NCBI RefSeq assembly: GCF_050920415.1
Contig: NZ_CP169309.1
Length of the DNA stretch: 64,000 nucleotides
From: Escherichia coli
Lineage (GTDB): Bacteria; Pseudomonadota; Gammaproteobacteria; Enterobacterales; Enterobacteriaceae
Strand: one strand, 5' to 3'
Shown: positions 818 through 55,556 of the stretch, in pieces
Layout of the letters: every line of letters starts with the position of its first letter
Numbering within the stretch: the first letter of the stretch is position 1
Notes under the pieces: model-generated
Told to the model about the DNA's origin: nothing
Databases searched by the model: none
The model's input: only the letters and a program-made list of their open reading frames with translations
Made by a program: the position numbers and the translations under genes

Positions 818-2529
818 TGAGCGAAAAACATCCAGGGCCTTTAGTGGTCGAAGGTAAACTGACAGACGCCGAGCGCATGAAGCTTGAGAGCAACTACCTG
901 CGCGGGACCATTGCGGAAGATTTAAACGACGGTCTGACCGGCGGCTTTAAGGGCGACAACTTCCTGCTGATCCGTTTCCACGGTATGTATCAGCAGGATG
1001 ACCGCGATATCCGCGCCGAACGTGCTGAACAGAAGCTGGAACCGCGTCATGCGATGCTGCTGCGCTGCCGTCTGCCGGGTGGGGTGATCACCACTAAACA
1101 GTGGCAGGCAATTGATAAATTCGCCGGTGAAAACACCATTTATGGCAGCATTCGCCTGACCAACCGCCAGACGTTCCAGTTCCACGGCATTCTGAAAAAG
1201 AACGTCAAACCGGTGCACCAGATGCTGCACTCGGTCGGTCTTGATGCGCTGGCGACCGCCAACGACATGAACCGTAATGTACTCTGCACCTCGAACCCAT
1301 TTGAATCTCAGTTGCACGCGGAAGCGTATGAGTGGGCGAAGAAAATCTCTGAACATCTGCTGCCGCGTACCCGCGCCTACGCGGAGATCTGGCTCGATCA
1401 GGAAAAAGTCGCCACCACTGACGAAGAACCGATCCTCGGTCAGACCTATCTGCCGCGTAAATTCAAAACCACGGTAGTGATCCCGCCGCAGAACGATATC
1501 GATCTGCACGCCAACGACATGAACTTTGTGGCGATCGCGGAAAACGGCAAGCTGGTGGGCTTCAACCTGCTGGTGGGTGGTGGGCTTTCTATCGAACACG
1601 GCAACAAGAAAACCTACGCCCGCACGGCGAGCGAGTTTGGCTATCTGCCACTGGAGCATACGCTGGCGGTGGCGGAAGCGGTCATTACCACTCAGCGTGA
1701 CTGGGGTAATCGTACTGACCGTAAAAACGCCAAAACCAAATACACGCTGGAGCGCGTGGGGGTCGAGACGTTTAAAGCAGAAGTGGAACGTCGCGCGGGG
1801 ATCAAGTTCGAACCGATCCGTCCGTATGAATTTACCGGTCGCGGCGATCGTATCGGCTGGGTAAAAGGGATCGACGACAAATGGCACTTGACGCTGTTTA
1901 TCGAAAATGGCCGAATTCTTGATTATCCGGGACGTCCGCTGAAAACCGGCCTGTTGGAGATCGCAAAGATCCACAAAGGTGATTTCCGCATTACGGCGAA
2001 CCAGAATCTGATCATCGCCGGTGTACCGGAAAGCGAGAAAGCGAAGATTGAGAAGATCGCCAAAGAGAGCGGATTGATGAATGCCGTCACGCCGCAGCGC
2101 GAAAACTCAATGGCCTGCGTGTCATTCCCGACTTGCCCGTTGGCGATGGCGGAAGCGGAGCGTTTCCTGCCGTCGTTTATCGATAACATCGATAATTTAA
2201 TGGCGAAACATGGTGTCAGCGATGAGCATATCGTGATGCGTGTAACAGGCTGCCCGAACGGTTGTGGTCGCGCGATGCTGGCGGAAGTGGGCCTGGTGGG
2301 TAAAGCGCCTGGGCGCTACAACCTGCATCTTGGTGGCAACCGCATTGGGACACGTATCCCACGGATGCATAAAGAAAACATCACCGAGCCGGAAATCCTG
2401 GCGACGCTTGATGAACTGATAGGGCGCTGGGCGAAAGAACGTGAAGCGGGTGAAGGCTTCGGCGACTTTACGGTGCGTGCGGGCATCATTCGCCCGGTGC
2501 TCGATCCGGCGCGTGATTTGTGGGATTAA
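817..2529 (+). CDS. cysI: Sulfite reductase hemoprotein beta subunit (siroheme/4Fe-4S)
   Basis: 570-aa ORF, length and sequence typical of CysI, with a C-terminal Cys cluster (CPNGCGR); translationally coupled to cysJ. Confidence 0.95.
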
Positions 2530-12513: not shown

Positions 12514-13701
12514 GAGTTCCCCGCGCCAGCGGGGATAAACCGCTCGCGTATACTCTCTGCCAACGTCTCCAGATGAGTTCCCCGCGCCAGCGGGGATAAA
12601 CCGGCGGGATTATCGGCACTGACGTCGGCGCTGTGGAGTTCCCCGCGCCAGCGGGGATAAACCGGGTCGCTTCCATATATGAACCTTGAGGATTAGGAGT
12701 TCCCCGCGCCAGCGGGGATAAACCGGTTCCATGCACTGCCCGCAGTGTCAGCCGTACGAGTTCCCCGCGCCAGCGGGGATAAACCGGTAAATCATACGTT
12801 GGCATCAGTATTTTTCTCGAGTTCCCCGCGCCAGCGGGGATAAACCGACTCCGCGCCATTTGAGAATTCTCAGTTCTGCGAGTTCCCCGCGCCAGCGGGG
12901 ATAAACCGCTACTGCTGTCAGACGGCAGGGCAAAACAGCGGAGTTCCCCGCGCCAGCGGGGATAAACCGGACGTGCGGATGCTGTTTCTGGTTTTACCTC
13001 CGAGTTCCCCGCGCCAGCGGGGATAAACCGTTTTTTCTCAGCGTCTGGCAGAGCTAATCGCCGAGTTCCCCGCGCCAGCGGGGATAAACCGGTGTCAAAT
13101 TTCATGTAATTGATGATCCAGCTGAGTTCCCCGCGCCAGCGGGGATAAACCGGGTATTTCTCGTTAACACGGTCGTATCAAAACGAGTTCCCCGCGCCAG
13201 CGGGGATAAACCGAGGGGTTGCAACCATAGCCCTTAGTTGATTGCGAGTTCCCCGCGCCAGCGGGGATAAACCGCCAGTGGATTTTAATAAACTCTCCAG
13301 CGAGCAGAGTTCCCCGCGCCAGCGGGGATAAACCGTTCGCCACGTCAGGCGTGATTTCCTGCACTGAGAGTTCCCCGCGCCAGCGGGGATAAACAGGGCG
13401 CGTCTGCGCCCGCTAGGACTCGTGTCAAGAGTTCCCCGCGCCAGCGGGGATAAACCGGGAGTTCAGACATAGGTGGAATGATGGACTACGAGTTCCCCGC
13501 GTTAGCGGGGATAAACCGCCCGGTAGCCAGGTTTGCAACGCCTGAACCGAGAGTTCCCCGCGCCAGCAGGGATAAATCGGCAACGACGGTGAGATTTCAC
13601 GCCTGACGCTGGTGTTCCCCGCATCAGCGGGGATAAACCGGGCGCACTGGATGCGATGATGGATATCACTTAGAATTCCCCGCCCCTGCGGTAGAACTCC
13701 C
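12514..13701 (+). CRISPR. Type I-E CRISPR array: 19 regular 29-bp repeats plus one degenerate terminal repeat, 19 spacers of 32 bp
   Basis: Repeat GAGTTCCCCGCGCCAGCGGGGATAAACCG recurs with an exact 61-bp period from 12514 to 13612. Repeats at 13368, 13490, 13551 and 13612 carry point variants, and a heavily degenerate terminal repeat sits at 13673-13701. Confidence 0.97.
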
Positions 13702-24834: not shown

Positions 24835-24901
24835 TATGGGGAGTTGGTGTGTTTCGTCGCCTGGATAAGACACGTCAGCGTCCCATCCGGCAATCAACAT
24901 C

Positions 24902-25309
24902 CTATTTGCTCATCATCTTGCGCACCAGCTGCATAAACAGCTCCTGCTCTTCTCCACTCAAACGCCCCAAAAATTCCTCATCCACACTGTCGCCAATCGG
25001 TATCGCCGCAGCAAGTACCTTTTCTCCTTCGGCAGTCAGCCAGACAAAGCGTCGCCGCTTATCAGCGGTGTCATGTTCACGTCTGACTAAGCCACGATTT
25101 TCCATTCTTGCCAACATTTCTGCCAGCGTTGCTTTGGTGCTGACGGCTGCTTCCATCAGTGCCACCTGTTCGATACCAGGTTTATCAGCAATGGCGCGCA
25201 TCACCGCGTACTGTGGTTTGGTCAGGTCAGGTAACTCGTGCTGCCAGCGGGCCGTATGCTGCTGAAAAAGCTGTCGTAACTGATGGAACGCTTTATTTCG
25301 TAACGCCAT
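24902..25309 (-). CDS. MarR/SlyA-family transcriptional regulator
   Basis: 135-aa ORF with winged-helix MarR-like sequence; divergent from the decarboxylase operon. Confidence 0.8.
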   Translation of the reverse strand: MALRNKAFHQLRQLFQQHTARWQHELPDLTKPQYAVMRAIADKPGIEQVALMEAAVSTKATLAEMLARMENRGLVRREHDTADKRRRFVWLTAEGEKVLAAAIPIGDSVDEEFLGRLSGEEQELFMQLVRKMMSK

Positions 25310-25455
25310 GTAAACTCCGGGCTAATTCTCTGTCGCTATCATAGCGGTTTTTCAGTGACGAAGAAGATGTTGTTACTTTTCAATCCTTGCCGCTGTGGAA
25401 ATGAAGGAGTATGTTAATAATAACGTTCGTATACGAACAATTAAGATAGTAAGCA

Positions 25456-26049
25456 ATGAAACTGATCGTCGGGATGACAGGGGCTACCGGTGCGCCTCTT
25501 GGTGTGGCATTACTGCAAGCGCTGCGGGAGATGCCGAATGTCGAGACTCATCTGGTGATGTCGAAGTGGGCGAAAACCACTATTGAACTGGAAACGCCTT
25601 ACAGCGCTCGCGATGTTGCCGCCCTCGCTGACTTCAGCCATAACCCGGCGGATCAGGCTGCGACCATCTCTTCCGGCTCCTTTCGTACCGACGGCATGAT
25701 CGTTATTCCATGCAGTATGAAAACGCTCGCCGGTATCCGCGCTGGTTACGCCGATGGTCTCGTAGGGCGCGCGGCGGACGTCGTGCTCAAAGAAGGCCGC
25801 AAACTGGTGCTGGTGCCGCGTGAAATGCCGCTTAGCACCATCCATCTCGAAAATATGCTCGCACTTTCGCGCATGGGCGTGGCGATGGTGCCGCCGATGC
25901 CTGCCTTTTATAACCATCCCGAAACGGTAGATGACATTGTCCACCACGTGGTAGCCCGCGTGCTGGATCAATTTGGCCTCGAACATCCTCACGCCAGGCG
26001 CTGGCAAGGGTTGCCGCAGGCCCGGAATTTTTCTCAGGAGAATGAATAA
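25456..26049 (+). CDS. ecdB: UbiX/Pad1-like flavin prenyltransferase (decarboxylase B subunit)
   Basis: 197-aa ORF (MKLIVGMTGATGAPLGVALLQAL...), UbiX family. The ecdB name is as recalled for the E. coli O157 homologue. Confidence 0.85.
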   Translation: MKLIVGMTGATGAPLGVALLQALREMPNVETHLVMSKWAKTTIELETPYSARDVAALADFSHNPADQAATISSGSFRTDGMIVIPCSMKTLAGIRAGYADGLVGRAADVVLKEGRKLVLVPREMPLSTIHLENMLALSRMGVAMVPPMPAFYNHPETVDDIVHHVVARVLDQFGLEHPHARRWQGLPQARNFSQENE

Positions 26050-27476
26050 TGGCATTTGATGATTTACGCAGCTTTTTACAGGCGCTCGACGACCAGGGGC
26101 AATTGCTGAAAATCAGCGAAGAGGTGAATGCCGAGCCGGATCTGGCTGCCGCTGCCAACGCCACCGGGCGTATCGGCGACGGCGCGCCCGCGCTGTGGTT
26201 TGATAATATTCGCGGCTTTACCGATGCGCGCGTGGCGATGAACACCATCGGCTCCTGGCAGAACCACGCGATTTCCCTCGGGCTGCCACCGAACACACCG
26301 GTTAAAAAACAGATTGATGAGTTTATCCGCCGCTGGGATAACTTTCCCATTGCCCCGGAACGCCGCGCCAATCCTGCCTGGGCGCAGAACACCGTCGATG
26401 GCGACGAGATCAATTTGTTCAATATCCTGCCGCTGTTTCGTTTAAACGATGGCGATGGCGGTTTCTATCTCGACAAAGCGTGCGTGGTTTCCCGCGATCC
26501 GCTCGATCCGGATAACTTCGGCAAGCAGAACGTCGGCATCTATCGCATGGAAGTGAAGGGTAAGCGTAAGCTCGGCCTGCAACCGGTGCCGATGCACGAT
26601 ATCGCCCTGCATCTGCATAAAGCAGAAGAGCGCGGTGAAGATCTGCCGATTGCGATCACGCTCGGTAACGATCCGATCATCACCCTGATGGGCGCCACCC
26701 CGCTGAAATATGATCAATCGGAGTACGAAATGGCGGGCGCACTACGCGAAAGCCCGTACCCGATCGCCACCGCCCCGCTGACCGGTTTTGATGTGCCGTG
26801 GGGCTCGGAGGTGATCCTCGAAGGGGTAATCGAAAGCCGTAAACGCGAGATTGAAGGGCCGTTCGGTGAATTTACCGGCCACTACTCCGGCGGGCGCAAC
26901 ATGACCGTGGTGCGCATCGATAAAGTCTCTTACCGCACCAAACCGATTTTTGAATCGCTCTATCTCGGTATGCCGTGGACCGAAATCGACTACCTGATGG
27001 GGCCAGCCACCTGTGTGCCGCTGTATCAGCAACTGAAAGCCGAGTTCCCGGAAGTGCAGGCGGTGAACGCTATGTACACCCACGGCCTGCTGGCGATTAT
27101 CTCCACCAAAAAACGCTATGGCGGCTTTGCCCGCGCAGTGGGCCTGCGTGCGATGACCACGCCGCACGGTCTGGGTTATGTGAAGATGGTGATTATGGTC
27201 GATGAAGACGTTGACCCGTTCAACCTGCCGCAGGTGATGTGGGCGCTCTCGTCGAAAGTGAACCCGGCAGGCGATCTGGTGCAACTGCCGAATATGTCCG
27301 TGCTGGAACTCGACCCAGGCTCAAGCCCGGCGGGGATCACCGATAAGCTGATTATCGACGCCACCACGCCTGTCGCCCCGGACAACCGTGGCCACTACAG
27401 CCAGCCGGTGGTGGACTTACCGGAAACCAAAGCCTGGGCTGAAAAACTGACCGCTATGCTGGCCGCACGTAAATAA
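26049..27476 (+). CDS. ecdC: UbiD-family reversible hydroxyarylic acid decarboxylase (C subunit)
   Basis: 475-aa UbiD-like ORF, start overlapping the upstream stop. Confidence 0.85.
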   Translation: MAFDDLRSFLQALDDQGQLLKISEEVNAEPDLAAAANATGRIGDGAPALWFDNIRGFTDARVAMNTIGSWQNHAISLGLPPNTPVKKQIDEFIRRWDNFPIAPERRANPAWAQNTVDGDEINLFNILPLFRLNDGDGGFYLDKACVVSRDPLDPDNFGKQNVGIYRMEVKGKRKLGLQPVPMHDIALHLHKAEERGEDLPIAITLGNDPIITLMGATPLKYDQSEYEMAGALRESPYPIATAPLTGFDVPWGSEVILEGVIESRKREIEGPFGEFTGHYSGGRNMTVVRIDKVSYRTKPIFESLYLGMPWTEIDYLMGPATCVPLYQQLKAEFPEVQAVNAMYTHGLLAIISTKKRYGGFARAVGLRAMTTPHGLGYVKMVIMVDEDVDPFNLPQVMWALSSKVNPAGDLVQLPNMSVLELDPGSSPAGITDKLIIDATTPVAPDNRGHYSQPVVDLPETKAWAEKLTAMLAARK

Positions 27477-27486
27477 GGAGAACAAG

Positions 27487-27723
27487 ATGATTTGTCCACG
27501 TTGTGCCGATGAACAGATTGAAGTGATGGCGAAATCGCCGGTGAAAAATGTCTGGACGGTCTACCAGTGCCAGCATTGCCTTTATACCTGGCGCGATACT
27601 GAACCGCTACGCCGCACCAGCCGCGAACATTATCCCGAAGCCTTCCGCATGACGCAGAAAGATATTGATGACGCGCCGATGGTGCCGAGCATCCCGCCGC
27701 TGCTGGCGGAAGGTAAGCGCTAA
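27487..27723 (+). CDS. ecdD: Small decarboxylase-associated subunit D with a Cys-rich zinc-ribbon-like motif
   Basis: 78-aa ORF with CPRC...CQHC motifs, immediately downstream of the UbiD-like gene as in bsdBCD/vdcBCD-type operons. Confidence 0.75.
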   Translation: MICPRCADEQIEVMAKSPVKNVWTVYQCQHCLYTWRDTEPLRRTSREHYPEAFRMTQKDIDDAPMVPSIPPLLAEGKR

Positions 27724-47757: not shown

Positions 47758-49467
47758 ATGTCTGAAGAAAAATTAGGTCAACATTATCTCGCCGCGCTGA
47801 ATGAGGCATTTCCGGGCGTCGTGCTGGACCACGCCTGGCAGACCAAAGATCAGCTGACTGTCACCGTAAAGGTGAACTATCTGCCGGAAGTGGTGGAGTT
47901 CCTCTACTACAAGCAGGGGGGCTGGCTGTCGGTGCTGTTTGGTAACGACGAACGCAAACTGAATGGTCATTACGCCGTTTATTACGTGCTGTCGATGGAG
48001 AAGGGCACCAAGTGTTGGATTACGGTTCGCGTCGAAGTTGACGCCAACAAACCAGAATATCCGTCCGTGACGCCGCGCGTTCCGGCGGCGGTGTGGGGCG
48101 AGCGTGAAGTGCGCGATATGTACGGTTTGATTCCGGTAGGGCTTCCGGATGAACGCCGTCTGGTGCTGCCGGATGACTGGCCGGATGAACTCTACCCGCT
48201 GCGTAAAGACAGCATGGATTATCGTCAACGTCCGGCACCAACTACTGATGCTGAAACCTACGAGTTCATCAACGAACTGGGCGACAAGAAAAACAACGTC
48301 GTGCCGATTGGTCCACTGCACGTCACTTCTGACGAACCGGGCCACTTCCGTCTGTTCGTTGATGGCGAAAACATTATCGACGCCGACTACCGCCTGTTCT
48401 ACGTCCATCGCGGCATGGAAAAACTGGCGGAAACCCGCATGGGTTACAACGAAGTGACCTTCCTCTCTGACCGAGTTTGTGGGATCTGCGGCTTTGCCCA
48501 CAGCACCGCTTACACCACATCGGTGGAAAACGCGATGGGTATTCAGGTGCCAGAACGTGCGCAGATGATTCGCGCCATTTTGCTGGAAGTGGAACGCCTG
48601 CACTCGCATCTGCTCAACCTTGGACTTGCCTGCCACTTCACTGGCTTTGACTCCGGTTTTATGCAGTTCTTCCGCGTGCGTGAAACCTCCATGAAAATGG
48701 CGGAGATCCTTACCGGTGCGCGTAAAACTTACGGTCTGAACCTGATCGGCGGGATTCGTCGCGATCTGCTGAAAGATGACATGATCCAGACCCGTCAACT
48801 GGCGCAGCAGATGCGTCGTGAAGTGCAGGAGCTGGTGGATGTGCTGCTGAGCACACCGAACATGGAACAGCGCACTGTCGGCATTGGTCGTCTGGACCCG
48901 GAAATTGCCCGCGACTTCAGTAACGTCGGCCCGATGGTCCGCGCCAGCGGTCACGCTCGCGATACCCGCGCTGATCACCCGTTTGTTGGTTATGGCCTGC
49001 TGCCAATGGAAGTCCACAGCGAGCAGGGCTGCGACGTGATTTCCCGTCTGAAAGTGCGTATCAACGAAGTCTATACCGCGCTGAACATGATTGACTACGG
49101 TCTGGATAACCTGCCGGGCGGCCCGCTGATGGTGGAAGGCTTTACCTACATTCCGCACCGTTTTGCGCTGGGCTTTGCCGAAGCGCCGCGTGGCGATGAT
49201 ATCCACTGGAGCATGACCGGCGACAACCAGAAGCTGTACCGCTGGCGCTGCCGTGCCGCGACCTACGCGAACTGGCCGACCCTGCGCTACATGCTGCGCG
49301 GCAACACCGTTTCTGATGCGCCGCTGATTATCGGTAGCCTGGACCCTTGCTACTCCTGTACTGACCGCATGACCGTGGTCGATGTACGTAAGAAGAAGAG
49401 CAAAGTGGTGCCGTACAAAGAACTTGAGCGCTACAGCATTGAGCGTAAAAACTCGCCGCTGAAATAA
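47758..49467 (+). CDS. hycE: Hydrogenase 3 large subunit ([NiFe] catalytic subunit)
   Basis: 569 aa from the ATG at 47758; N-terminal RxCGxC and C-terminal DPCxxC Ni-Fe ligand motifs. Confidence 0.95.
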   Translation: MSEEKLGQHYLAALNEAFPGVVLDHAWQTKDQLTVTVKVNYLPEVVEFLYYKQGGWLSVLFGNDERKLNGHYAVYYVLSMEKGTKCWITVRVEVDANKPEYPSVTPRVPAAVWGEREVRDMYGLIPVGLPDERRLVLPDDWPDELYPLRKDSMDYRQRPAPTTDAETYEFINELGDKKNNVVPIGPLHVTSDEPGHFRLFVDGENIIDADYRLFYVHRGMEKLAETRMGYNEVTFLSDRVCGICGFAHSTAYTTSVENAMGIQVPERAQMIRAILLEVERLHSHLLNLGLACHFTGFDSGFMQFFRVRETSMKMAEILTGARKTYGLNLIGGIRRDLLKDDMIQTRQLAQQMRREVQELVDVLLSTPNMEQRTVGIGRLDPEIARDFSNVGPMVRASGHARDTRADHPFVGYGLLPMEVHSEQGCDVISRLKVRINEVYTALNMIDYGLDNLPGGPLMVEGFTYIPHRFALGFAEAPRGDDIHWSMTGDNQKLYRWRCRAATYANWPTLRYMLRGNTVSDAPLIIGSLDPCYSCTDRMTVVDVRKKKSKVVPYKELERYSIERKNSPLK

Positions 49468-49476
49468 GGAATCGCC

Positions 49477-50019
49477 ATGTTTACCTTTATCAAAAAAGTC
49501 ATCAAAACCGGCACGGCGACCTCGTCTTACCCGCTGGAGCCGATTGCGGTTGATAAAAACTTCCGTGGTAAGCCAGAGCAGAACCCGCAGCAGTGCATCG
49601 GCTGCGCAGCCTGCGTCAATGCCTGCCCGTCAAACGCCTTAACCGTTGAAACTGATCTCGCCACCGGTGAGCTGGCATGGCAGTTCAATCTCGGTCGCTG
49701 CATCTTCTGTGGACGCTGCGAAGAAGTCTGCCCGACGGCGGCGATCAAACTGTCGCAAGAGTACGAACTGGCGGTGTGGAAGAAAGAAGATTTCCTGCAA
49801 CAGTCTCGCTTCGCGCTGTGCAACTGCCGCGTCTGCAATCGTCCTTTCGCCGTCCAGAAAGAGATCGACTACGCCATTGCGCTGCTTAAGCACAATGGTG
49901 ACAACCGTGCGGAAAACCACCGCGAAAGCTTTGAGACTTGCCCGGAATGTAAGCGCCAGAAATGCCTGGTGCCGTCTGACCGTATTGAACTGACTCGCCA
50001 TATGAAAGAGGCCATCTGA
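49477..50019 (+). CDS. hycF: Formate hydrogenlyase subunit 6 (Fe-S, NuoI-like)
   Basis: 180-aa ORF with two 4Fe-4S ferredoxin motifs. Confidence 0.94.
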
Positions 50020-50786
50020 TGAGCAATTTATTAGGCCCCCGTGACGCCAACGGCATTCCGGTCCCGATGACGGTGGATGAATCCATCGCCAGTATGAAGG
50101 CGTCGTTACTGAAAAAAATCAAACGTTCTGCCTACGTTTACCGCGTGGACTGCGGCGGCTGCAACGGCTGCGAAATTGAAATTTTCGCTACCTTATCGCC
50201 GCTGTTCGATGCAGAACGCTTCGGCATTAAAGTTGTGCCGTCTCCGCGTCATGCGGATATTTTACTGTTTACCGGCGCGGTCACCCGTGCAATGCGATCC
50301 CCTGCGCTGCGTGCGTGGCAGTCTGCGCCGGACCCGAAAATCTGTATCTCCTACGGCGCCTGCGGTAACAGCGGCGGGATCTTCCACGATCTCTACTGCG
50401 TGTGGGGGGGTACGGATAAAATCGTCCCGGTGGATGTCTACATTCCGGGGTGCCCGCCAACGCCTGCCGCCACGCTGTACGGCTTTGCAATGGCGCTCGG
50501 CCTGCTGGAGCAGAAAATTCACGCCCGTGGGCCGGGTGAACTGGATGAACAACCGGCAGAGATCCTGCATGGCGATATGGTGCAGCCGCTGCGTGTAAAA
50601 GTAGATCGCGAAGCACGCCGCCTGGCGGGTTATCGTTACGGTCGCCAGATTGCCGATGATTTCCTGACGCAGTTAGGGCAGGGTGAAGAGCAGGTTGCAC
50701 GCTGGCTGGAAGCGGAAAACGATCCGCGTCTGAACGAGATTGTCAGCCATCTGAATCATGTTGTTGAAGAGGCGCGTATTCGATGA
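50019..50786 (+). CDS. hycG: Hydrogenase 3 small subunit (NuoB-like)
   Basis: 255-aa ORF with Cys motifs (CGGCNGC, GCPP). Confidence 0.94.
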
Positions 50787-51193
50787 GTGAAAAGGTGGTG
50801 TTCAGTCAACTGAGCCGTAAATTTATTGATGAGAACGATGCTACGCCCGCCGAGGCGCAGCAGGTGGTCTATTATAGCCTGGCGATTGGTCACCACCTTG
50901 GGGTTATCGATTGCCTGGAAGCCGCGCTCACCTGCCCGTGGGATGAATATCTGGCATGGATTGCCACTCTGGAGGCGGGCAGTGAAGCCCGCCGTAAAAT
51001 GGAAGGCGTGCCGAAATATGGTGAGATCGTTATCGACATTAACCATGTGCCGATGCTGGCCAACGCATTCGATAAAGCCCGGGCAACGCAAACTTCGCAA
51101 CAGAAAGAATGGAGTACCATGCTGTTAAGTATGCTGCATGATATTTATCAGGAAAATGCCATCTATTTGATGGTGAGGAGACTGCGTGACTGA
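50783..51193 (+). CDS. hycH: Formate hydrogenlyase maturation protein HycH
   Basis: 136-aa ORF; 4-nt overlap with hycG. Confidence 0.92.
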
Positions 51194-51656
51194 CGTTTTA
51201 CTCTGTGTTGGCAATAGCATGATGGGCGATGATGGCGCAGGTCCGCTGCTGGCGGAAAAGTGCGCCGCCGCGCCGAAAGGTAACTGGGTGGTGATTGACG
51301 GCGGAAGCGCACCGGAAAACGACATTGTCGCCATCCGCGAACTGCGCCCGACACGACTGCTGATTGTCGACGCCACGGATATGGGGCTAAACCCCGGCGA
51401 GATCCGCATCATCGATCCGGATGACATCGCCGAGATGTTTATGATGACTACCCATAACATGCCGCTGAACTACCTTATCGACCAGTTGAAAGAAGATATT
51501 GGTGAAGTGATTTTCCTCGGTATCCAGCCGGATATCGTCGGTTTTTACTACCCGATGACCCAGCCGATTAAAGACGCCGTAGAAACCGTTTATCAACGTC
51601 TGGAAGGCTGGGAAGGGAATGGTGGATTTGCGCAGTTAGCGGTGGAAGAAGAGTAG
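51186..51656 (+). CDS. hycI: Hydrogenase 3 maturation endopeptidase HycI
   Basis: 156-aa ORF ([20 protein letters not shown]), HybD/HycI protease family. Confidence 0.94.
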   Translation: MTDVLLCVGNSMMGDDGAGPLLAEKCAAAPKGNWVVIDGGSAPENDIVAIRELRPTRLLIVDATDMGLNPGEIRIIDPDDIAEMFMMTTHNMPLNYLIDQLKEDIGEVIFLGIQPDIVGFYYPMTQPIKDAVETVYQRLEGWEGNGGFAQLAVEEE

Positions 51657-51823
51657 TTCGTAGACAAACATATTCACGTTTTTGAATTTGGACGTGCTAT
51701 TGTGACGGTTAGACGGGTGTTTACATATTGTGAACACTCGTGTGATCAACTACTATAGAAAAATAAAACCGAAGGAACGGGTAGTCCAGGCTTAGTCATT
51801 CAGGCGCTGATAAGGAAGTTAAA

Positions 51824-52135
51824 ATGCACATCATTTCTAAAGCGCCATTTGAAGAGTCTGCGCGTAAATATCCTAACGACGCTCTGGCTCTACACTCATT
51901 GTATCGGGTTATTAAGGAAACGGATTTTTCTACGCCAGAAGAAATGCGAACGGCGTTTCCCAACCTCGACAATTTTAAATATCGCAATAAATGGTACGTT
52001 CTGGATGTAGGCGGGAACAATCTTAGGGTTATTGCCTACATAAACTTTGTTAATAAGCGGTTCTTTGTGAAGCACATAACGAATCATGCCGAGTATGACA
52101 AACTGACACGTTACTACAGAGAGAACAAAGAATGA
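51824..52135 (+). CDS. HigB-like type II toxin (RelE/ParE superfamily mRNA interferase)
   Basis: 103-aa ORF (MHIISKAPFEE...FPNLDNFKYRNKWYVLDVGGNNLRVIAY...) with HigB-family architecture; Shine-Dalgarno aggaag upstream; 4-nt overlap (ATGA) with the downstream antitoxin gene; AT-richer than the flanking hyc genes. Confidence 0.75.
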   Translation: MHIISKAPFEESARKYPNDALALHSLYRVIKETDFSTPEEMRTAFPNLDNFKYRNKWYVLDVGGNNLRVIAYINFVNKRFFVKHITNHAEYDKLTRYYRENKE

Positions 52136-52551
52136 CTGCTAATGCTGCACGCGCTGTTAAAGCAACAAGAGAACTGGTCAATGCAGTCCCCTTTCTGGGA
52201 GGCAGTGACTCAGAAGATGATTATCGTGAAGCACTGGAACTGGTCGAATATTTGATTGAAGAAGATGACACCAATCCACTTATCGACTTTCTGGCGAGCC
52301 GTATTGCAGAATATGAAAACAACCACGAAAAGTTTGCAGAGTTCGATAAAGCCGTTGCAGCAATGCCGATTGGCGTGGCGTTACTTCGCACGCTGATTGA
52401 TCAACATAATCTGACCTATGCGGATTTGAAGAACGAAATCGGCTCTAAATCCCTGGTCAGTCAGATTTTGTCTGGACAAAGATCCCTGACGATATCCCAC
52501 ATTAAGGCACTTTCAGCCCGATTTGGCGTTAAGCCGGAATGGTTTCTTTGA
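52132..52551 (+). CDS. HigA-like antitoxin (XRE-family HTH)
   Basis: 139-aa ORF whose C-terminal HTH (GSKSLVSQILSGQRSLTISHIKALSARFGV) and N-terminal region resemble HigA; toxin-first gene order typical of higBA. Confidence 0.75.
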   Translation: MTANAARAVKATRELVNAVPFLGGSDSEDDYREALELVEYLIEEDDTNPLIDFLASRIAEYENNHEKFAEFDKAVAAMPIGVALLRTLIDQHNLTYADLKNEIGSKSLVSQILSGQRSLTISHIKALSARFGVKPEWFL

Positions 52552-52574
52552 TTTTTGACAGATGCCAAACGCCA

Positions 52575-52660
52575 GATTGCCCGATGTGCTGCGCTTATCG
52601 GGCCTACATGTCGCACGAACTATGTAGGCCGGATAAGGCGTTCACGCCGCATCCGGCACG
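52575..52660. repeat. REP/BIME palindromic units between the higA-like gene and ascB
   Basis: gcccgatgtgctgcgcttatcgggcctaca and tgtaggccggataaggcgttcacgccgcatccggca GC-rich imperfect palindromes. Confidence 0.6.
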
Positions 52661-52665
52661 TTTGC

Positions 52666-55556
<2,891 letters not shown>

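What the first reader, a model, noticed from the sequence alone, without database searches (positions are those of the whole stretch)
51657..52665. HigB/HigA-like toxin-antitoxin pair inserted between hycI and ascB
Two short co-directional genes sit between the convergent hycI and ascB genes: a 103-aa RelE/ParE-fold toxin of HigB type and a 139-aa XRE-HTH antitoxin of HigA type, in toxin-first order with a 4-nt ATGA overlap. As I recall the K-12 map, hycI and ascB are adjacent with no gene between them, so this looks like a strain-specific accessory insertion into a core operon junction. The pair is AT-richer than the flanking hyc and asc genes, has an imperfect inverted repeat (gtgtttaca-tat-tgtgaacac, 51717-51737) in its upstream region that could be an autoregulatory operator, and is followed by REP units. 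It is a diverged paralogue of higBA, not the canonical ygjNM copy.
Basis: partly seen in the sequence, partly recalled or inferred. Interest (0 to 1): 0.6.

Follow-up and report, generated by a model that had tools for sequence, protein, structure and literature searches.

The report
Second HigB/HigA toxin-antitoxin pair
This is a real but ordinary toxin-antitoxin gene pair, a second copy of the well-studied E. coli HigB/HigA system that public databases already name as such; it is variably present or partly deleted across E. coli strains at this spot.

Summary
Window 51824-52135 (103 aa) and 52132-52551 (139 aa) are co-directional ORFs with an ATGA overlap, lying between convergent hycI and ascB. 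They are AT-richer than their flanks and are followed by a REP pair.

Identity is clear. The toxin matches Pfam HigB_toxin PF09907 (4.6e-23) and E. coli K-12 HigB structure 5IFG_A (7e-22, 39% identity). The antitoxin matches HigA 5IFG_B (3e-35, 46%) and has a C-terminal HTH_3 domain.

GTTTACATATTGTGAAC (51719-51735) occurs once in 64 kb. The same palindrome lies upstream of every intact homologue fetched, in several genera, a plasmid and a phage. Most relatives carry two copies; the window keeps one.

The pair is neither strain-specific nor new. Of 5426 complete E. coli genomes, 1091 have both genes, 1417 keep only the antitoxin, and 2767 have the K-12-type junction. The K-12 junction is itself a deletion scar of a neighbouring 251-aa gene. 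RefSeq already names the toxin a HigB family toxin.

Toxicity, neutralisation and DNA binding are inferred from homology only. Interest is low.

The parts
51719..51735 (.). It overlaps the -35-like hexamer.
   Evidence: It is the only match in the 64-kb window (0.05 expected). The core is 19/19 identical in E. coli strains whose surrounding upstream DNA is only ~60% alike. The same palindrome lies upstream of intact higB in the Leclercia, Mangrovibacter, Citrobacter, Phytobacter, Yokenella, Kluyvera and Pluralibacter loci and in the Leclercia plasmid. Binding was not tested.
51728..51759 (+). Putative, degenerate sigma-70 promoter: -35-like TTGTGA (51728-51733), a 20-nt spacer, and -10-like TATAGA (51754-51759). 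The second operator (O2), which follows the -10 in most relatives, is absent here.
   Evidence: Read from the sequence by alignment to relatives, which have TTGTAA, 17 nt, TATAGT, then O2 GTTYACATAATGTAAAC. The consensus scan finds no + strand promoter here. This is inference only.
51812..51818 (+). Shine-Dalgarno sequence AAGGAAG, 5 nt upstream of the higB ATG.
   Evidence: Read directly from the sequence. It is conserved between the E. coli upstream variants.
51824..52135 (+). higB-like toxin gene, 103 aa, of the RelE-superfamily HigB_toxin family.
   Evidence: Pfam PF09907, 4.6e-23. PDB 5IFG_A K-12 HigB, 7e-22, and 39% identity. RefSeq names the product 'type II toxin-antitoxin system HigB family toxin'. 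dN/dS within E. coli is 0.03-0.21. All 22 columns invariant between this clade and K-12 HigB are present.
52132..52551 (+). higA-like antitoxin gene, 139 aa: an N-terminal domain homologous to that of K-12 HigA plus a C-terminal XRE helix-turn-helix. Its start overlaps the higB stop (ATGA).
   Evidence: PDB 5IFG_B HigA, 3e-35 over residues 9-138, and 46% identity. Pfam HTH_3, 7.9e-9, at residues 85-138. dN/dS is 0.06-0.13.
52561..52662 (.). Pair of REP elements (a BIME) between the higA and ascB stop codons. It belongs to the chromosomal backbone, not to the toxin-antitoxin cassette.
   Evidence: Inverted repeats at 52594-52609/52622-52637 and 52628-52641/52644-52657. K-12 shares it at 89% identity. 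It matches a median of 37 places per genome and gives a sub-threshold naRNA4 hit.
51659..52560 (.). Extent of the difference from the K-12 junction: about 902 nt here against 51 nt in K-12.
   Evidence: Pairwise blastn and alignments.

Best explanation
This is a chromosomal type II toxin-antitoxin operon of the E. coli K-12 HigBA (YgjN/YgjM) kind, present as a diverged second copy.

By homology, HigB is a small RelE-superfamily ribonuclease that cleaves mRNAs being translated on the ribosome. HigA would neutralise it by binding through its N-terminal domain, as in the solved HigB-(HigA)2-HigB complex. HigA's C-terminal XRE helix-turn-helix would repress the operon by binding the 17-bp palindrome at 51719-51735, which overlaps the -35 region. 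Loss of the antitoxin (Lon-dependent induction in K-12) would free the toxin and derepress transcription.

The cassette is a mobile module, with close relatives on enterobacterial plasmids and one phage. In E. coli it sits at a polymorphic hycI-ascB junction.

Shown here: homology of both proteins, gene architecture, purifying selection, operator conservation and population distribution. Inferred: toxicity, neutralisation, DNA binding and Lon control.

In this strain the control region is reduced. It has one operator instead of two, a 20-nt spacer and a TATAGA -10. No terminator separates it from hycI, so part of its transcription may be read-through from the hyc operon.
For: - Family: Pfam HigB_toxin 4.6e-23 and HTH_3 7.9e-9.
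- Solved structures: K-12 HigB 7e-22 and HigA 3e-35, aligned nearly end to end, at 39% and 46% identity.
- Architecture: toxin first with an ATGA overlap, as in higBA of K-12 and as the higBA definition requires (PMC2814082).
- Selection: dN/dS is 0.03-0.21 within E. coli. Proteins are 73-82% identical across genera while synonymous sites are saturated.
- Operator: the palindrome is unique in the window. It lies upstream of higB in the 16 loci then held that carry an intact higB, and in the plasmid and phage copies fetched afterwards.
- K-12 comparison: the K-12 higBA promoter has the same layout, palindrome, -10 TATCAT, palindrome, but a different half-site, GTTGCCA against GTTYACA.
- K-12 experiments: HigB cleaves only translated mRNA, HigA autoregulates, and induction depends on Lon (PMC2814082).
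- Mobility: homologues occur on 1043 plasmid records.
Against: - No experiment on this paralogue turned up in the open literature I searched.
- No NCBIfam model reaches significance for either protein.
- The window's promoter looks weakened: O2 is missing, the spacer is 20 nt, the -10 lacks its final T, and the consensus scan finds no + strand promoter.
- The toxin gene has been lost while the antitoxin was kept in 1417 genomes, so selection to keep the toxin is weak in many lineages.
Confidence: 0.8

Rival explanations
1. The pair is a decaying or largely silent relic. The ORFs are intact, but the module is poorly expressed from its own promoter and is on its way to toxin loss, as has already happened in a quarter of E. 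coli genomes. Any remaining role would belong to the antitoxin.
For: - O2 is lost, the spacer is 20 nt, the -10 is TATAGA, and no promoter call is made.
- 1417 genomes keep only higA, through at least two different deletions. The D-type junction alone is in 835 genomes.
- The same loss pattern occurs in Kluyvera georgiana and Serratia sp. DD3.
- It also occurs at the canonical higBA locus (PMC3464220 Dataset S1; PMC7232551).
Against: - higB shows strong purifying selection, for example 8 synonymous against 1 non-synonymous change versus strain 746.
- The ORF is intact in 1091 genomes.
- O1 and the Shine-Dalgarno sequence are conserved.
- The window-type upstream variant is itself shared by 342 genomes.
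Confidence: 0.12
2. Its main role is abortive-infection defence against phages, as for the related PD-lambda-2 system. Infection would release the HigB-like toxin and stop translation before phage progeny are made.
For: - PADLOC profiles PD-Lambda-2_A (1.9e-15) and PD-Lambda-2_B (1.4e-14) match the two proteins.
- PD-lambda-2 defends against lambda-vir (PMC9519451).
- Relatives are carried on plasmids and on a Cronobacter phage.
Against: - PD-lambda-2 needs a roughly 400-aa HigA-peptidase fusion and a third gene. Here the antitoxin has 139 aa and matches only positions 9-115 of the 402-position profile.
- Nothing follows the antitoxin except REP elements and ascB.
- In PD-lambda-2 the toxic part is component B, not the HigB-like A.
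- The locus is not in a defence island.
Confidence: 0.06
3. The pair is not a toxin-antitoxin system in practice: an XRE-type regulator with a co-transcribed small protein that has lost nuclease activity.
For: Activity is untested, and no NCBIfam equivalog model matches.
Against: - The toxin aligns full-length with active K-12 HigB, and every column invariant across the clade is retained, including H88, Y91, R68 and D49-N50-F51.
- The recurrent pattern is toxin deleted and antitoxin kept, never the reverse, in the loci seen. This is what a toxic partner predicts.
Confidence: 0.02

Closest known systems
E. coli K-12 HigB/HigA (YgjN/YgjM, b3083/b3082; structures 5IFG, 6KML; Shigella flexneri 5YCL)
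   Same: - Same Pfam toxin family (PF09907).
- Same two-part antitoxin, aligned end to end, with the HTH at the C-terminus.
- Same toxin-first order with a 4-nt overlap.
- Same promoter plan, with palindromic operators around the -10.
   Different: - Only 39% (toxin) and 46% (antitoxin) identical.
- Different chromosomal site: hycI-ascB rather than fadH-rlmG.
- Different operator half-site: GTTYACA against GTTGCCA.
- Basic residues in the K-12 HTH (SRVLSGKRK) are Q/Q/S here (SQILSGQRS).
- The window has one operator, not two.
Plasmid- and phage-borne HigB-family pairs of Enterobacteriaceae (for example Leclercia adecarboxylata pLA-109, Enterobacter and Citrobacter plasmids, Cronobacter phage JK004)
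   Same: This is the same clade. The toxin is 77-79% identical, with the same overlap architecture. The Leclercia plasmid has the O1 and O2 palindromes upstream and phage JK004 has one such site.
   Different: Those copies sit on mobile replicons, and pLA-109 keeps both operators close to the start codon. The E. coli chromosomal copies have a longer remodelled leader and have lost O2 wholly or in part.
PD-lambda-2 anti-phage system (Vassallo et al. 2022, PMC9519451)
   Same: It has a HigB-like first gene and a HigA-like N-terminal part of the second gene (PADLOC matches).
   Different: There is no peptidase domain and no third component here. Toxicity in PD-lambda-2 resides in component B.
Proteus vulgaris Rts1 HigB/HigA (Pfam PF05015 HigB-like)
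   Same: Toxin-first order, ribosome-dependent RelE-superfamily toxin and an XRE-HTH antitoxin with O1/O2 operators (PMC12266136; PMC11980606).
   Different: It belongs to a different Pfam toxin family. PF05015 did not match here.

Membership tests
HigB toxin family (Pfam PF09907, K-12 YgjN type) | Significant match to the family profile | tested here: met
   PF09907 at 4.6e-23, covering residues 22-93 and model positions 4-73 of 74.
HigB toxin family (Pfam PF09907, K-12 YgjN type) | Full-length homology to an experimentally characterised, structurally solved member | tested here: met
   5IFG_A at 7e-22 over residues 1-100, and 39% identity by BLASTP at 2e-29.
HigB toxin family (Pfam PF09907, K-12 YgjN type) | Toxin gene precedes the antitoxin gene in one operon (the higBA definition, PMC2814082) | tested here: met
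   ORFs 51824..52135 and 52132..52551 are on the same strand with an ATGA overlap.
HigB toxin family (Pfam PF09907, K-12 YgjN type) | Retention of residues invariant across the family, including the C-terminal H..Y motif and the GGN.LR motif | tested here: met
   22 columns are invariant across 13 sequences including K-12 HigB. Among them are D49, N50, F51, G63, G64, N65, R68, H88 and Y91. Their catalytic role was not verified here.
HigB toxin family (Pfam PF09907, K-12 YgjN type) | Translation-dependent mRNA cleavage and growth arrest | not testable with these tools
   This needs induction and RNA mapping experiments.
HigA antitoxin (K-12 YgjM type) | C-terminal XRE helix-turn-helix domain | tested here: met
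   HTH_3 at 7.9e-9, residues 85-138.
HigA antitoxin (K-12 YgjM type) | N-terminal domain homologous to that of solved HigA | tested here: met
   5IFG_B at 3e-35, aligned over residues 9-138, and 46% identity.
HigA antitoxin (K-12 YgjM type) | Palindromic operators in the operon's own promoter | tested here: met
   O1 lies at 51719-51735, is unique in the window and is conserved across genera. Only one of the two operators seen in most relatives is present here.
HigA antitoxin (K-12 YgjM type) | Binds and neutralises the cognate toxin and represses transcription | not testable with these tools
   This needs co-expression, pull-down and EMSA experiments.
HigA antitoxin (K-12 YgjM type) | Match to a curated NCBIfam model | tested here: not met
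   Neither protein gives a meaningful NCBIfam hit. RefSeq still names the toxin a HigB family toxin, and names the second gene either HTH-domain protein or HigA family antitoxin.
PD-lambda-2 defence system | Component A: HigB-like protein | tested here: met
   PD-Lambda-2_A at 1.9e-15.
PD-lambda-2 defence system | Component B: HigA-like HTH fused to a C-terminal peptidase (profile of about 400 positions) | tested here: not met
   The protein has 139 aa and matches only profile positions 9-115 of 402. Pfam finds no peptidase domain.
PD-lambda-2 defence system | Component C (P4 antitoxin-like), required for defence | tested here: not met
   Between the higA stop at 52551 and the ascB stop at 52666 there are only REP elements.
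Proteus/Rts1-type HigB (Pfam PF05015) | Match to PF05015 | tested here: not met
   PF09907 was the only family reported, even at E<=10.
REP/BIME elements | Short imperfect palindromes, intergenic and present in many copies per genome | tested here: met
   Inverted repeats at 52594-52657, a median of 37 matching places per E. coli genome, and presence at the K-12 junction too.

The most novel reading that the evidence does not exclude
The hycI-ascB higA gene, which 1417 of 5426 E. coli genomes keep after losing the toxin, may be retained because it works as an anti-addiction or immunity factor. It would neutralise the roughly 78%-identical HigB toxins carried by enterobacterial plasmids and a phage. 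Supporting signs are 9 synonymous and 0 non-synonymous differences between an orphan and a paired copy. In strains like this one, the intact pair may additionally be expressed as the tail of the formate-inducible hyc operon.
Probability: 0.15. Interest if true: 0.5.

Novelty: already known. Interest (0 to 1): 0.2.

Why it matters
Little changes for biology at large. This is one more chromosomal HigBA-family module, already labelled as such in RefSeq and UniRef.

Its practical value is as a caution for toxin-antitoxin inventories of E. coli. Studies built on the K-12 list miss this locus. The 'higBA' knockout in CFT073 targeted the canonical ygjNM site, not this one.

The junction also gives a clean natural series for studying how toxin genes are lost while antitoxins persist. 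The series runs from full pair, to pair without the neighbouring gene, to orphan antitoxin by two different deletions, to no cassette, to a scar. The two paralogues use different operator half-sites, which may insulate them from each other.

Tried and rejected
- NCBIfam scan of both proteins: nothing meaningful.
- Consensus promoter scan: no + strand promoter upstream of higB. The three terminator-like hits are at chance level and none lies between hycI and higB.
A shuffle test showed the repeat alone is not significant. Conservation had to carry the argument.
- Rfam scan: only a sub-threshold REP-derived hit.
- Literature searches for HigB with hycI, for ascB/hycI with toxin-antitoxin or HigA, and for the four RefSeq protein accessions: no papers.
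- Norton & Mulvey's CFT073 higBA mutant might have been this locus. The primer sequences show it is the canonical locus.
- The 251-aa neighbouring gene as a third component: rejected. It has no Pfam or PADLOC match and is absent next to the pair in other genera.
- Outgroup test with contigs encoding a HigA (P0024) that sources name E. albertii: their hyc genes are 95% identical to the window, which is E. coli-like, so they do not polarise insertion against deletion.
- PD-lambda-2 membership: rejected on two defining features.
- I first read the K-12 junction as proof that higBA had been deleted there. Strain GmF046 (L033), with an intact 251-aa gene and no cassette, showed that only the deletion of the neighbouring gene is proven.

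Full report
**What is there.** The window carries two co-directional ORFs between the end of hycI (51656, + strand) and the end of ascB (52666, - strand). They are 51824..52135 (103 aa) and 52132..52551 (139 aa), and they share the four bases ATGA. A Shine-Dalgarno sequence, AAGGAAG (51812-51818), precedes the first ATG. GC content falls to 0.42-0.46 across the pair, against 0.50-0.61 in hyc and asc. Downstream, 52561-52662 holds a pair of REP palindromes. That stretch matches a median of 37 places per E. coli genome and is also present at the K-12 junction.

**Which organism.** The window is 99.7-99.9% identical to E. coli MFDS1022581 (NZ_CP169399.1), apart from a CRISPR array of different length.

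**What the proteins are.** The 103-aa protein matches Pfam HigB_toxin PF09907 at 4.6e-23 and no other family. It aligns end to end with the solved E. coli K-12 HigB (5IFG_A, 7e-22; 39% identity). The 139-aa protein aligns over residues 9-138 with K-12 HigA (5IFG_B, 3e-35; 46% identity) and has HTH_3 at residues 85-138. NCBIfam has no model for either protein. RefSeq nevertheless annotates the identical toxin as 'type II toxin-antitoxin system HigB family toxin'. It annotates the partner as an HTH-domain protein or a HigA family antitoxin. Both exact proteins are in the public protein collection; their 90%-identity clusters hold sequences found on at least 1000 contigs each and named HigB or antitoxin HigA.

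**The operator.** Relatives settle the question.
- A scan of one genome per species found the same pair, at 74-82% protein identity, in Leclercia, Mangrovibacter, Kluyvera, Citrobacter, Phytobacter, Yokenella and Pluralibacter. None of these copies is next to hyc or asc.
- Upstream of nearly all of them lie two copies of a 17-bp palindrome. O1 is GTTYACATATTGTAAAC and O2 is GTTYACATAATGTAAAC. A TATAGT or TATCAT -10 lies between them, and a TTGTAA -35 lies inside O1 at 17-nt spacing.
- The motif GTTYACATAWTGTRAAC occurs once in the 64-kb window, at 51719-51735, against 0.05 expected.
- The motif is found upstream of higB in every locus with an intact toxin, including a Leclercia plasmid and a Cronobacter phage.
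- Within E. coli the 19-nt core is identical between upstream variants that are otherwise about 60% alike.
- K-12 higBA has the same plan but a different half-site: CCGTTGCCA-atc-TGGCAACGG, then TATCAT, then a second imperfect palindrome. Basic residues in the K-12 recognition region are Q/Q/S here. I infer that the two paralogues are insulated in DNA recognition.

**A reduced control region.** The window keeps O1 only. The spacer between the -35-like TTGTGA and the -10-like hexamer is 20 nt rather than 17. The -10 reads TATAGA rather than TATAGT, and the consensus scan calls no promoter. No terminator-like site lies between hycI and higB. Read-through from the hyc operon is therefore possible but untested.

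**Population picture in 5426 complete E. coli genomes.**
- The antitoxin gene is present in 2508 genomes, always as a single chromosomal copy.
- The toxin gene is present at 80% coverage or more in 1091 genomes.
- It follows that 1417 genomes have an orphan antitoxin.
- The window's arrangement, with hycI followed directly by a 167-nt leader, is in 342 genomes. Only two are 99% identical or better.
- Many other strains, including O26:H11 11368 and Nissle 1917, have a 251-aa hypothetical gene between hycI and higB. That gene is present at 80% coverage or more in 1463 genomes.
- Orphan antitoxins arose by at least two deletions. One removes the promoter and higB only. The other fuses the first 61 codons of the 251-aa gene to the last ~33 nt of higB. 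The second type is in 835 genomes, including the type strain ATCC 11775.
- The K-12-type junction is in 2767 genomes.

**Insertion or deletion.** The K-12 intergenic region is not an empty site.
- It keeps the leader and ATG of the 251-aa gene, joined to that gene's last ~30 nt. GGGATGTGC occurs both at the start codon and near the 3' end of the intact gene, so deletion between these direct repeats is the likely origin.
- Strain GmF046 has that gene intact and no higBA, with a downstream junction identical to K-12's.
- Compared with that state, the ~900-nt cassette sits immediately after the gene's stop codon and is flanked by a CTGA/ACTGA repeat. This fits either an insertion with a short duplication or a microhomology deletion.
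- The contigs encoding a HigA that sources name E. albertii proved E. coli-like in hyc, so I have no outgroup.

The accurate statement is that this is an accessory cassette at a polymorphic junction. It is not strain-specific, and its polarity relative to K-12 is unresolved.

**Selection and mobility.**
- Within E. coli, higB differs mostly by synonymous changes (dN/dS 0.03-0.21), and higA likewise (0.06-0.13).
- An orphan higA differs from a paired one by 9 synonymous and 0 non-synonymous changes.
- Toxin homologues occur on 1043 plasmid records, 531 of them at 60-80% identity, mainly from Klebsiella (653 of the 1043 records), with Serratia, Escherichia, Enterobacter, Leclercia and Citrobacter among the rest. 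One occurs on Cronobacter phage JK004 at 77% identity.
- In the loci I examined, the toxin is lost and the antitoxin kept, never the reverse. The same is true in Kluyvera georgiana and Serratia sp. DD3. It is also true at the canonical locus in the literature. This is what a toxic first gene predicts.

**Mechanism.** I commit to a K-12-HigBA-like mechanism.
- HigB would cleave translated mRNAs.
- HigA would neutralise HigB.
- HigA would repress transcription at O1.
- Proteolysis of HigA would release both toxin and transcription.

The K-12 facts come from PMC2814082. Three alternatives rank lower.
- A largely silent, decaying module is the most serious, given the weakened promoter.
- A phage-defence role like PD-lambda-2 comes next. 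PADLOC profiles match, but the peptidase fusion and the third gene that define that system are absent.
- A non-toxic regulator pair is the least likely.

**Novelty and score.** I found no paper on this specific locus. The CFT073 higBA knockout in PMC3464220 targeted the canonical locus, as its primer sequences show. The family, fold, architecture and annotation are nevertheless all established, so I class the finding as already known, with low interest. The modestly new points are the distinct operator half-site, the loss of O2 in the E. coli copies, and the frequency of orphan antitoxins at this junction.

Noticed in passing
L002 2087-2842 (E. coli ESDR8); also L006 276-1019, L007 583-1338, L033 2433-3188. 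Absent from the window; K-12 remnant at L005 ~2022-2073 (reverse strand).: A 251-aa hypothetical gene lies between hycI and higB in many E. coli (present at 80% coverage or more in 1463 of 5426 genomes). It has a hydrophobic N-terminus (MCAFLLSLVQSALA) and no Pfam or PADLOC match. K-12 retains only its leader, start codon and last ~30 nt. Alleles differ by up to ~17% in DNA.
   Followed up: partly
L003 3035-3454, L004 3030-3449 (E. coli); L013 and L014 (Kluyvera georgiana, Serratia sp. DD3): Orphan higA genes without a toxin occur in 1417 of 5426 E. coli genomes, including ST131, O104:H4 and the type strain. They arose by at least two different deletions that also removed the operator. The orphan protein is identical to the paired one (WP_000126294.1), with 9 synonymous and 0 non-synonymous differences in one comparison. 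This suggests the antitoxin is retained for a function of its own.
   Followed up: partly
window 12514-13640: A type I-E CRISPR array with 19 repeats and 18 unique spacers lies downstream of cas3-casABCDE-cas1-cas2. The closest complete genome (MFDS1022581, otherwise 99.7-99.9% identical) has only 14 repeats, so the window strain differs by five repeat-spacer units.
   Followed up: partly
window ~24900-27720 (by collinearity with L027): Between rpoS and ygbN lie a MarR-family regulator and a three-gene hydroxyarylic acid decarboxylase cluster (subunits B, C, D). This comes from the RefSeq annotation of the near-identical genome. It is part of the rpoS-mutS stretch, which I recall as strain-variable; I did not compare it with other strains.
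   Followed up: no
L007 2449-3312 (Nissle 1917); L031 4512-5852: In Nissle 1917 and related genomes the asc operon is missing downstream of higA. A small minus-strand ORF (DUF4259 in Nissle) and then hydN follow directly. The right side of this junction is therefore polymorphic too.
   Followed up: no
L025 1957-2030, reverse strand (K-12 higBA promoter), compared with window 51719-51759: The two E. coli HigBA paralogues share promoter architecture but use different palindrome half-sites, GTTGCCA in K-12 and GTTYACA here. This is a candidate example of operator and repressor co-divergence that insulates paralogous toxin-antitoxin systems.
   Followed up: partly
window 48924-51656 (hycE 3' end to hycI): The hyc genes of the window are only 94-96% identical to those of K-12, Nissle and other E. 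coli. That looks low to me for an E. coli core operon and may reflect old recombining haplotypes around this junction. I made no genome-wide comparison.
   Followed up: no
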